A stretch of 64,000 bases of DNA. It comes from Aplysia californica (Eukaryota). The notes beneath the pieces were generated by a model. The model did not search any database, was not told the DNA's origin, and saw only the letters and a program-made list of their open reading frames with translations. The translations under genes were made by a program, and so were the position numbers. Each line of letters begins with the position of its first letter. Within the stretch, counting starts at the first letter, position 1. The stretch spans positions 366,072 to 430,071 of the forward strand of contig NW_004797520.1 of assembly GCF_000002075.1 (NCBI RefSeq), read 5' to 3'. Positions 47,503-48,037 of this stretch are shown here, piece by piece.

Positions 47503-47513
47503 CTGTGGACAGG

Positions 47514-47746
47514 TTTCAGTTTAGTTTTAGTAAGAGTTTTACGCCACTCACAACTGCATAAGGTCTTGTTTTCGTTTTAGTAAGAGTTTTTCGGCACTTG
47601 CAACATAATAAGGTCATATAAGTGCCGAAGATTAGAGGTGTTACAAGAGAGTAACATACACACAAAAAAGAAGGAGAGATAAGGACCATAGATATTTCAT
47701 AGGAAAGAAGGAGAAAACCACACCCGAGCACCCGCCAACCACCCAC
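47514..47746 (-). mobile_element. Family A retroposon with a duplicated 3' tail
   Basis: Full copy flanked by an 11-bp near-perfect direct repeat CTG(T/C)GGACAGG. Confidence 0.92.
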
Positions 47747-48037
47747 TGCGGACAGGGGCGAGCATCAACAGGTAAACAGGAGAAGCCTCAGGATGAACAT
47801 CAAAATCAAAACAAGATTTGTGAGTTGAAGAACAAAACAAGGTTCACAGTCACCAGCTTCACAACTAAAGGGAGTTCACTCATAGCTACCATTGATACCT
47901 GTATTTAATTTACCACCAGTGGCATCCTCTGAACACCCACAGGATACAAAAAAAGACAACTGAAACTCAACTAAAAACAATCCCTGTGAACTAATTACAA
48001 CAGCGAAATATCAAAGTGAAATTATGAAAATAAAATC

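What the first reader, a model, noticed from the sequence alone, without database searches (positions are those of the whole stretch)
47503..47756. Family A insertion whose target-site duplication is the PCTP 3' splice site
On the minus strand the element is flanked by CCTGTCCGCAG (47746-47756) and CCTGTCCACAG (47503-47513), and the latter is the acceptor of the last PCTP exon. The insertion therefore separated the acceptor from its original upstream intron sequence. The element tail (CTTACTAAAACTAAAC) now sits at branch-point distance with almost no pyrimidine tract. Another copy has an acceptor-like TSD, TGTCCTTTACAG (62255-62266 / 62442-62453), and the 23641 copy follows CTTTGTCTTTATTGTTTATAG. 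Inference: a target preference for Yn-YAG sequence, and a tail that may supply a branch point so that insertions at exon edges are tolerated.
Basis: partly seen in the sequence, partly recalled or inferred. Interest (0 to 1): 0.7.

Follow-up and report, generated by a model that had tools for sequence, protein, structure and literature searches.

The report
SINE insertion duplicates a splice acceptor
A short jumping element landed on the last splice signal of a lipid-transfer gene and copied it; assembled transcripts splice at the second copy, likely using the element's A-rich tail as branch site, and since the family shows no preference for splice-signal sequence this is most likely a tolerated accident, like the dog merle insertion.

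Summary
The anatomy is real. A SINE-like retroposon (47514-47746, minus strand; tail shared with an I-group LINE) sits between two copies of the last PCTP acceptor. One transcript contig in each of five data sets joins exon 5 to the downstream copy; none shows the upstream AG. The whole zone where a branch point is expected (-12 to -59) is element tail, so the tail likely supplies it; no lariat was mapped. The proposed Yn-YAG target preference fails. In 120 TSD copies outside the window, AG ends are raised (17 of 120) only because the element begins with G and shares that base with the target. TG ends are commoner (21), pyrimidines over -12..-3 are not raised, and acceptor-like ends number 1 against 0.6 expected. 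The real preference is an A-rich, tail-like TSD start. The 62255 TSD lies 43 nt behind a donor, and the 23641 copy has no TSD. A weaker, post hoc signal survives: copies lie sense to nearby exons 2:1 and skew to acceptor ends of introns. Verdict: a new member of a known kind (merle-like).

The parts
47746..47756 (-). Upstream TSD copy CCTGTCCGCAG: orphaned acceptor that keeps the original intron sequence upstream; its last G is shared with the element's first base
   Evidence: no contig uses it
47574..47746 (-). SINE-like body and first tail (93.6% identical to the family majority), with a 3' hairpin 47590-47629
47514..47565 (-). Second tail unit (about 50 nt) of the type shared with the I-group LINE 3' end; fills positions -12 to about -63 of the used acceptor
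47516..47531 (-). Candidate branch adenosines at 47531 (-29, CTTAC), 47527 (-25), 47521 (-19) and 47516 (-14); predicted, not mapped. The first upstream AG is 44 nt away (47547)
   Evidence: rule from PMC1431707 passages
47503..47513 (-). Downstream TSD copy CCTGTCCACAG: the used 3' splice site
47407..47502 (-). Last coding exon of the PCTP-like gene (31 codons plus TGA)
   Evidence: exon 5 ends at residue 193 of the 214-aa solved PCTP chain; this exon alone found no PCTP match
48755..48822 (-). Penultimate PCTP exon, joined to 47502 in RNA contigs
   Evidence: PDB 1ln1, E 5.9e-9
47714..47789 (-). Predicted pre-mRNA hairpin pairing the orphan acceptor's pyrimidine tract with the G/U-rich element head
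   Evidence: -33.2 kcal/mol, z -2.27, 2 of 200 shuffles as stable
62255..62453 (+). Family copy with a perfect 12-bp TSD ending in CAG, 43 nt behind a donor of a patatin-domain (PNPLA8-like, name recalled) gene; most likely not a used acceptor
23463..23642 (-). Family copy without a detectable TSD; its tail ends about 30 nt before a predicted acceptor at 23433

Best explanation
A SINE-like retroposon inserted in sense at the end of the last PCTP intron and duplicated the acceptor, likely by target-primed reverse transcription with an I-group LINE's enzyme; transcripts splice at the downstream copy, and the branch point is likely supplied by the element's A-rich tail, making this a chance landing that survived rather than a targeted one. 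Steps: (1) Shown: TSD, element, and use of the downstream AG. (2) Shown at family level: 11-12 bp TSDs, an A-rich tail-like TSD start and 1-nt G microhomology at the 5' junction, which explains why TSDs of this family often end in G and so sometimes in AG. (3) Inferred: the original branch point now lies more than 243 nt away with five AGs in between, so the branch point of the used acceptor should lie in the second tail unit (best guess A47531 or A47527). (4) Inferred and weaker: the orphan acceptor is disfavoured because it folds into a hairpin with the element's G/U-rich head, and its use would replace the last 31 residues by 34 unrelated hydrophobic ones, so alleles that used it would likely be lost.
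For: TSD and element. RNA: one contig per run, all to 47502, in 5 of 5 spliced data sets (X4; X15, X6, X10, X5). In X4 the depth over exon 5 equals that of this single contig. DNA-like runs X1 and X18 carry both insertion junctions without other letters (records 1, 4, 10, 13). AGs lie 44, 51, 62, 94 and 243 nt upstream of the used one; by the AG-exclusion rule (PMC1431707, passages) the search zone is -12 to -59, all tail. Family logo: (TAAA in 36 of 308 and AAAC in 34 of 308 target starts, against 3% in flanks). Partner LINE: ORF2 of 1226 aa with endonuclease, RT and RNase H whose 3' end aligns with the tail. Hairpin; 9 of 355 other copies fold as stably with their own flank. Alternative reading frame.
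Against: No branch point was mapped. Six of 17 predicted window acceptors have no YTNAY within 45 nt, so motif matches mean little here. Contigs drop rare isoforms, and the one raw-read run had only about 1x depth on exon 5, so minor use of the upstream AG is not excluded. The hairpin is post hoc: 20 of 300 shuffles of the upstream part fold as well, and 17 other acceptors joined to the same head are not masked (p=0.85). No empty allele or relative's orthologue was seen, so the pre-insertion state is inferred. This TSD starts with CCT, which is atypical for the family. The skew of sense copies toward acceptors suggests the landing zone is not fully random.
Confidence: 0.75

Rival explanations
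1. The family targets Yn-YAG (acceptor-like) sequence, so exon-edge landings are directed.
For: AG at the TSD end in 17 of 120 copies against 6.2% background (p=0.002); YAG in 7 of 120 against 2.6% (p=0.04); pyrimidines 54% at -8..-3 (p=0.03). Two window TSDs end in CAG.
Against: The excess vanishes once the shared G is allowed for: TG 21 versus AG 17; G at 0 plus G at -1 is at background (p=0.47). Pyrimidine fraction over -12..-3 is 0.48. Acceptor-like ends are 1 of 120 against 0.6 expected. The strongest signal is A at -12..-9 (216 of 480, p=4e-12). The two supporting examples are not shown to be used acceptors or TSD-derived.
Confidence: 0.05
2. The family is systematically tolerated, or mildly favoured, in sense at the 3' end of introns, because its sense strand is almost AG-free and its tail mimics a branch region; the PCTP copy is the extreme of that distribution.
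For: One copy per locus, 216 loci, window excluded: exon calls on the sense strand at 52 loci against 25 antisense (p=0.003). For sense copies the next acceptor is within 70 nt in 8 of 30 and within 200 nt in 16 of 30, against 8.3% and 24.4% for random intron positions (p=0.002, 0.0006); donors are 1 of 23 and 4 of 23. Five of the 8 near exons have Pfam support. The element majority sequence has 1 AG in sense and 24 in antisense. Four more window copies end about 30-70 nt before predicted acceptors.
Against: Post hoc test with a home-made exon finder and small counts. The direct sense versus antisense comparison is not significant (Fisher p=0.26-1.0). The acceptor-versus-donor test at 70 nt depends on threshold (p=0.04, 0.06, 0.23). 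In 122 reconstructed empty sites it was 3 against 1.2 expected (p=0.16). Most copies were best hits, not a random sample. Target starts are not enriched for YTRAY (12 of 308). Most near copies lie too far out for the tail to be the branch site.
Confidence: 0.3
3. The duplicated acceptor is a regulated switch: the upstream AG gives an alternative last exon with a 34-residue hydrophobic C-terminus.
For: The upstream AG keeps the better tract (12 versus 8 of 16 pyrimidines), is in frame, and gives a 34-codon hydrophobic stretch ending in a stop.
Against: 0 of 5 spliced data sets show it. It would remove the region matching PCTP residues 194-214, which form the closing helix of START domains (recalled). 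It is predicted to be paired in a hairpin.
Confidence: 0.05
4. The original branch point upstream of the element is still used, and the element is looped out by RNA structure so that step 2 reaches the downstream AG.
For: YTNAY motifs remain at -263 and -271. Hairpins are predicted over the orphan AG and within the element.
Against: Five AGs lie between, whereas verified distant-branch-point exons have an AG-free zone (PMC1431707, passages). The predicted hairpin also pairs the old branch region itself.
Confidence: 0.1

Closest known systems
Canine merle SINEC_Cf insertion in PMEL (PMC7349775 and PMC6091007, passages read)
   Same: A SINE at the last intron-exon boundary whose TSD (15 bp) contains and duplicates the original acceptor; the tail comes to lie in the branch/tract zone.
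   Different: Merle is antisense, its oligo(dT) acts as pyrimidine tract, a cryptic acceptor is used and there is a phenotype. Here the element is sense, the tail is A-rich and would act as branch region, and only normal splicing is seen.
TE-supplied branch points, e.g. the MIR/AluSp exon in BLOC1S2 (PMC6822395, passages)
   Same: Predicted branch points lie in retroposon sequence.
   Different: That case creates a new exon; here an existing terminal exon is preserved.
Mollusc SINEs with I-superfamily (Nimb) LINE tails (PMC4758252, passages and section 10; PMC11481361, passages)
   Same: Short non-coding element with variable TSD, 3' tandem repeat and a tail shared with an endonuclease-RT-RNase H LINE; accumulation in or near genes (190-250 per Mb around the window against 61 per Mb in random loci).
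   Different: No tRNA or Rfam head was found, and the head does not align significantly with this LINE's 5' UTR. Whether the family is already named in repeat libraries could not be checked.
Orientation and splice-site bias of intronic TEs in mammals (PMC3088655, passages)
   Same: Human SINEs show a sense bias 20-200 bp from exons, ascribed to cryptic acceptors on the antisense strand.
   Different: Mammalian elements are rarer near acceptors than near donors; this family shows the opposite trend in a small sample.

Membership tests
Non-autonomous non-LTR retroposon (SINE in the broad sense) | Variable-length TSD | tested here: met
   178 of 356 copies have a TSD score of 8 or more against 1 of 356 mismatched controls; mode 11-12 bp
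Non-autonomous non-LTR retroposon (SINE in the broad sense) | 3' tail shared with an autonomous LINE, ending in simple repeats | tested here: met
   The tail aligns with the 3' end of a ~6 kb LINE carrying endonuclease, RT and RNase H
Non-autonomous non-LTR retroposon (SINE in the broad sense) | Short, non-coding, high copy number | tested here: met
   About 175 bp; 30 near-full hits in 493,121 non-N bases of 60 random loci
tRNA-derived SINE (SINE2) | tRNA-derived head with A and B boxes | tested here: not met
   ARAGORN found 0 genes; Rfam gave one chance hit, E=2; no properly spaced boxes seen by eye. A decayed head could be missed
LP-SINE (LINE-promoter head) | Head homologous to a LINE 5' UTR | tested here: inconclusive
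   Score 55-60 against 54 +/- 5 for shuffles with the one partner LINE family tested; other LINE families were not tested
Nimb clade as partner LINE | RT phylogeny places the LINE in Nimb rather than another I-group clade | not tested
   Only domain content was tested; the I-group label rests on recalled domain architecture
Sequence-specific (targeted) retroposon | Conserved target motif at the insertion site | tested here: not met
   Only a loose A-rich TSD start and 1-nt G microhomology
Merle-type acceptor-duplicating insertion | The TSD contains the functional 3' splice site | tested here: met
Merle-type acceptor-duplicating insertion | Altered splicing or use of an alternative acceptor | tested here: inconclusive
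   None seen in 5 contig sets; raw-read depth too low
TE-derived branch point | Lariat junction maps inside the element | not testable with these tools
   Only positional inference
Introner (intron-creating transposon) | The element itself is spliced out as a new intron, using splice sites at both ends | tested here: not met
   The element lies inside an existing intron whose donor follows exon 5 at 48755

The most novel reading that the evidence does not exclude
This high-copy SINE family is 'splice-neutral' in sense: an almost AG-free strand ending in a branch-point-like CTAAAA tail lets it pile up at the acceptor end of introns and replace branch regions genome-wide, the reverse of the mammalian pattern, so that many branch points of this genome are SINE-derived.
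Probability: 0.3. Interest if true: 0.55.

Novelty: new member of a known kind. Interest (0 to 1): 0.3.

Why it matters
The single event is a clean natural example of a 3' splice site rebuilt from retroposon tail plus an 11-nt TSD. It splices with a weak tract while a better-looking copy 243 nt upstream is ignored, which makes it a handy minigene for branch-point and acceptor choice in an invertebrate. It does not reveal a new targeting mechanism. The family-wide sense and acceptor-end skew, if confirmed with annotation, would matter more: it would show that a SINE's sequence can decide where in introns it survives and that such a family can supply branch regions.

Tried and rejected
Yn-YAG target preference: rejected. 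AG as the element's own 5' end: only 9 of 154 TSD copies have AG between TSD and TGGG, and G alone is the rule (76 of 154). A branch-point-like target motif (YTRAY) at the TSD start: not enriched. General masking of any acceptor by the element head: rejected. RNase H search for the partner LINE: the 30 loci did not carry the tail at their 3' ends; the partner was found through tail-only hits instead. Raw-read run X24 was too shallow over PCTP and cluttered by other copies; only 15 of 107 joints were displayed, so an empty allele or a rare joint could be hidden. No listed run was on record as RNA among the holders; RNA status of X4, X5, X6, X10 and X15 is inferred from their spliced contigs. 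The last exon alone gave no PCTP match in PDB or Pfam. A larger contiguous genomic sample for the exon-edge test could not be obtained, so that test stays small. A paper search for SINE, sense orientation, intron, 3 splice site, insertion bias and branch point found 0 papers with five of six terms; this is a narrow search and does not show absence from print. Earlier scan notes near this place or with similar sequence: none. No supplementary files were read; repeat consensus sequences in the supplements of PMC4758252 might name this family.

Full report
Observation. On the minus strand the window reads CCTGTCCGCAG (47756-47746), then a 232-nt insert, then CCTGTCCACAG (47513-47503) and an open frame of 31 codons to TGA. 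The two 11-mers differ at one base, and only 1 of 355 upstream 11-mers of other copies matches the same downstream stretch as well. The gene is PCTP-like: exons at 52450 and 50739 match Pfam START below its cut-off, and exons at 50739 and 48820 match solved human PCTP (1ln1; E 7.6e-10 and 5.9e-9). Exon 5 ends at residue 193 of 214. The host is a 927-Mb animal genome, probably a mollusc; that is my guess and comes from no call.

Which AG is used. In run X4 one 3,739-nt contig (depth 47.7) joins 48755 to 47502, and depth over exon 5 equals that contig alone. On a repeat-free stretch around exon 5, each of four more runs from four studies laid exactly one contig, and all four continue into 47502. 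None shows the upstream AG. Contigs drop rare forms, and the only raw-read run had about 1x depth there, so minor use stays open. Use of the upstream AG would be in frame and give 34 hydrophobic residues and a stop in place of the last exon. Two DNA-like runs carry both junctions unchanged; one may be the assembly's source. No empty allele was displayed, but only 15 of 107 joints were shown.

What the element is. It is about 175 bp, begins with G (89% of 283 copies have G before TGGG), and ends in a hairpin plus CTAAAA-type repeats. Density is 30 near-full hits in 493,121 non-N bases of 60 random loci, which extrapolates to some tens of thousands of copies; around the window it is 3-4 times higher. 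Tail-only hits led to a ~6 kb LINE with endonuclease, RT and RNase H whose 3' end aligns with the tail; I call it I-group from recalled domain architecture. No tRNA or Rfam head was found, and the head does not match this LINE's 5' UTR above shuffles. The PCTP copy is 93.6% identical to the family majority and carries a second ~50-nt tail unit, as do 5 of 356 copies. Whether that unit came in the same event or later cannot be told.

Target preference. From 341 sequences, 383 BLAST hits were complete at both ends, giving 356 unique copies. Of these, 178 had a TSD score of 8 or more, against 1 of 356 mismatched controls. I dropped 24 (9 distant, 8 low-complexity, 3 window copies, 2 tandem, 2 over 20 bp) and set aside 34 with other junction letters, leaving 120 in register. 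Most copies came from best-hit searches, so the sample leans young. TSDs are mostly 11-12 bp. G opposite the element's first G is 44 of 120 and G one base earlier is 9 of 120; together they are at background (p=0.47). This is the signature of a shared base at the 5' junction; 5' microhomologies are described for L1-mediated insertions (PMC2912911, passages). AG ends (17) and YAG ends (7) exceed genome background (p=0.002, 0.04), but given the G, T precedes it more often (21) than A (17; p=0.26), and Y before AG is at background. Pyrimidines are 0.48 over -12..-3, with a slight excess at -8..-3 (0.54, p=0.03). Acceptor-like ends are 1 against 0.6 expected. The true bias is A at -12..-9 (216 of 480, p=4e-12), with the tail-like words TAAA and AAAC about four times flank level and no excess of YTRAY. 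This fits priming on T-rich nicks by the A-rich tail (inference). With an assumed 150,000-200,000 acceptors, on the order of ten such exact landings are expected by chance before selection (rough estimate; the acceptor number is not measured).

The 62255/62442 TSD is real but starts 43 nt behind the donor at 62211 of a patatin-domain exon; the next in-frame exon begins at 62989. The 23641 copy has no detectable TSD and its G is the element's own.

Branch point. AGs lie 44, 51, 62, 94 and 243 nt upstream of the used one. By the AG-exclusion rule (branch point within the AG-free zone plus about 15 nt; PMC1431707, passages, derived in human), the zone is -12 to -59, all second tail. Candidates are CTTAC at -29 and YTNA at -25, -19 and -14. 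The tract is weak (8 of 16 pyrimidines, against 12 for the orphan and 11-15 for 16 of 17 other window acceptors). Against over-reading: 6 of those 17 acceptors have no YTNAY in 45 nt. The orphan acceptor is predicted to pair with the G/U-rich head (-33.2 kcal/mol; z -2.27, 2 of 200 shuffles; 9 of 355 other copies as stable; 20 of 300 upstream shuffles as stable), but the head does not mask 17 other acceptors (p=0.85). It is a locus-specific, post hoc aid at best.

Tolerance at exon edges. With a home-made exon finder and one copy per locus (216 loci, window excluded, middle threshold), exon calls were sense at 52 loci and antisense at 25 (p=0.003). Sense copies had the next acceptor within 70 nt in 8 of 30 and within 200 nt in 16 of 30, against 8.3% and 24.4% for random intron positions; donors were 1 of 23 and 4 of 23. 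Five of the 8 near exons, and the 1 antisense one, have Pfam support. The majority strand has 1 AG in sense and 24 in antisense. Against this: sense versus antisense near acceptors is not significant, the 70-nt acceptor-donor contrast is threshold-dependent (p=0.04, 0.06, 0.23), and the TSD-only subset gave 3 against 1.2 (p=0.16). In mammals TEs are scarcer near acceptors than donors, with a sense bias for human SINEs at 20-200 bp (PMC3088655, passages). The skew here is a lead, not a result.

Comparison and verdict. The closest described case is canine merle, where a SINE with a 15-bp TSD duplicates the last PMEL acceptor (PMC7349775, PMC6091007; passages); it differs in orientation, tail role and outcome. 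Predicted TE-supplied branch points are in print (PMC6822395, passages), as are mollusc SINEs with Nimb-LINE tails that accumulate near genes (PMC4758252, passages and section 10; PMC11481361, passages). Unchecked notes of this scan describe four like events in other genomes; they are leads only, but suggest the event type is recurrent. The finding is a real, well-spliced, acceptor-duplicating SINE insertion with a likely tail-derived branch point and no targeting mechanism. Interest 0.3; the family-wide acceptor-end skew (probability about 0.3) would deserve about 0.55.

Noticed in passing
window 24144-24331 (-): A slightly 5'-truncated family copy ends about 30 nt before a predicted in-frame acceptor of a PHD-finger (ING3-like, name recalled) gene. 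That acceptor ends in A8-CAG with only 7 of 16 pyrimidines, and its only YTNAY within 45 nt lies in the tail (-40): a second candidate for a tail-supplied branch point. Not tested with RNA.
   Followed up: partly
window 41343-41556 (+), 23434-23642 (-), 22943-23193 (-): Three more sense copies end about 30-70 nt before predicted acceptors (glycine cleavage T-protein gene, Pfam; ING3-like gene).
   Followed up: partly
216 loci genome-wide: Copies lie sense to nearby predicted exons about 2:1 at all three thresholds (69:33, 52:25, 40:15).
   Followed up: partly
L356:2933-8890, L358:2972-8917, L359, L360: Full-length ~6 kb LINE family (ORF1 about 500 aa; ORF2 1226 aa with endonuclease, RT and RNase H); ORF2 regions are 98-99% alike between several copies, so it is probably recently active; shares the SINE's tail.
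   Followed up: partly
L224-L250: About 26 copies with identical score and length form a young subfamily with clean TSDs.
   Followed up: partly
window 34191-34373 and clusters of 61 and 16 tail hits: At least two other short-element families share the same 3' tail with different bodies.
   Followed up: no
window 20865-21182, 50215-50557: Tandem or partly duplicated copies of the element; a second tail within 45 nt was found in 5 of 356 copies.
   Followed up: partly
window plus L211-L220: Copy density is 190-250 per Mb here against 61 per Mb in 60 random loci.
   Followed up: partly
window 61820-61961 (+): A tandem duplication of about 140 nt repeats an acceptor and the first bases of a patatin-gene exon (ccag|acgagaaatgggtgagaaatc at about 61820 and at 61962): a second duplicated acceptor, not element-made.
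   Followed up: no
window 1-8000: Strongly skewed low-complexity repeat region (GC skew about -0.55).
   Followed up: no
15 random full copies: CpG transitions are 22 of 120 against 61 of 950 at other C/G sites, so the single TSD mismatch is most simply CpG decay in the used copy.
   Followed up: partly
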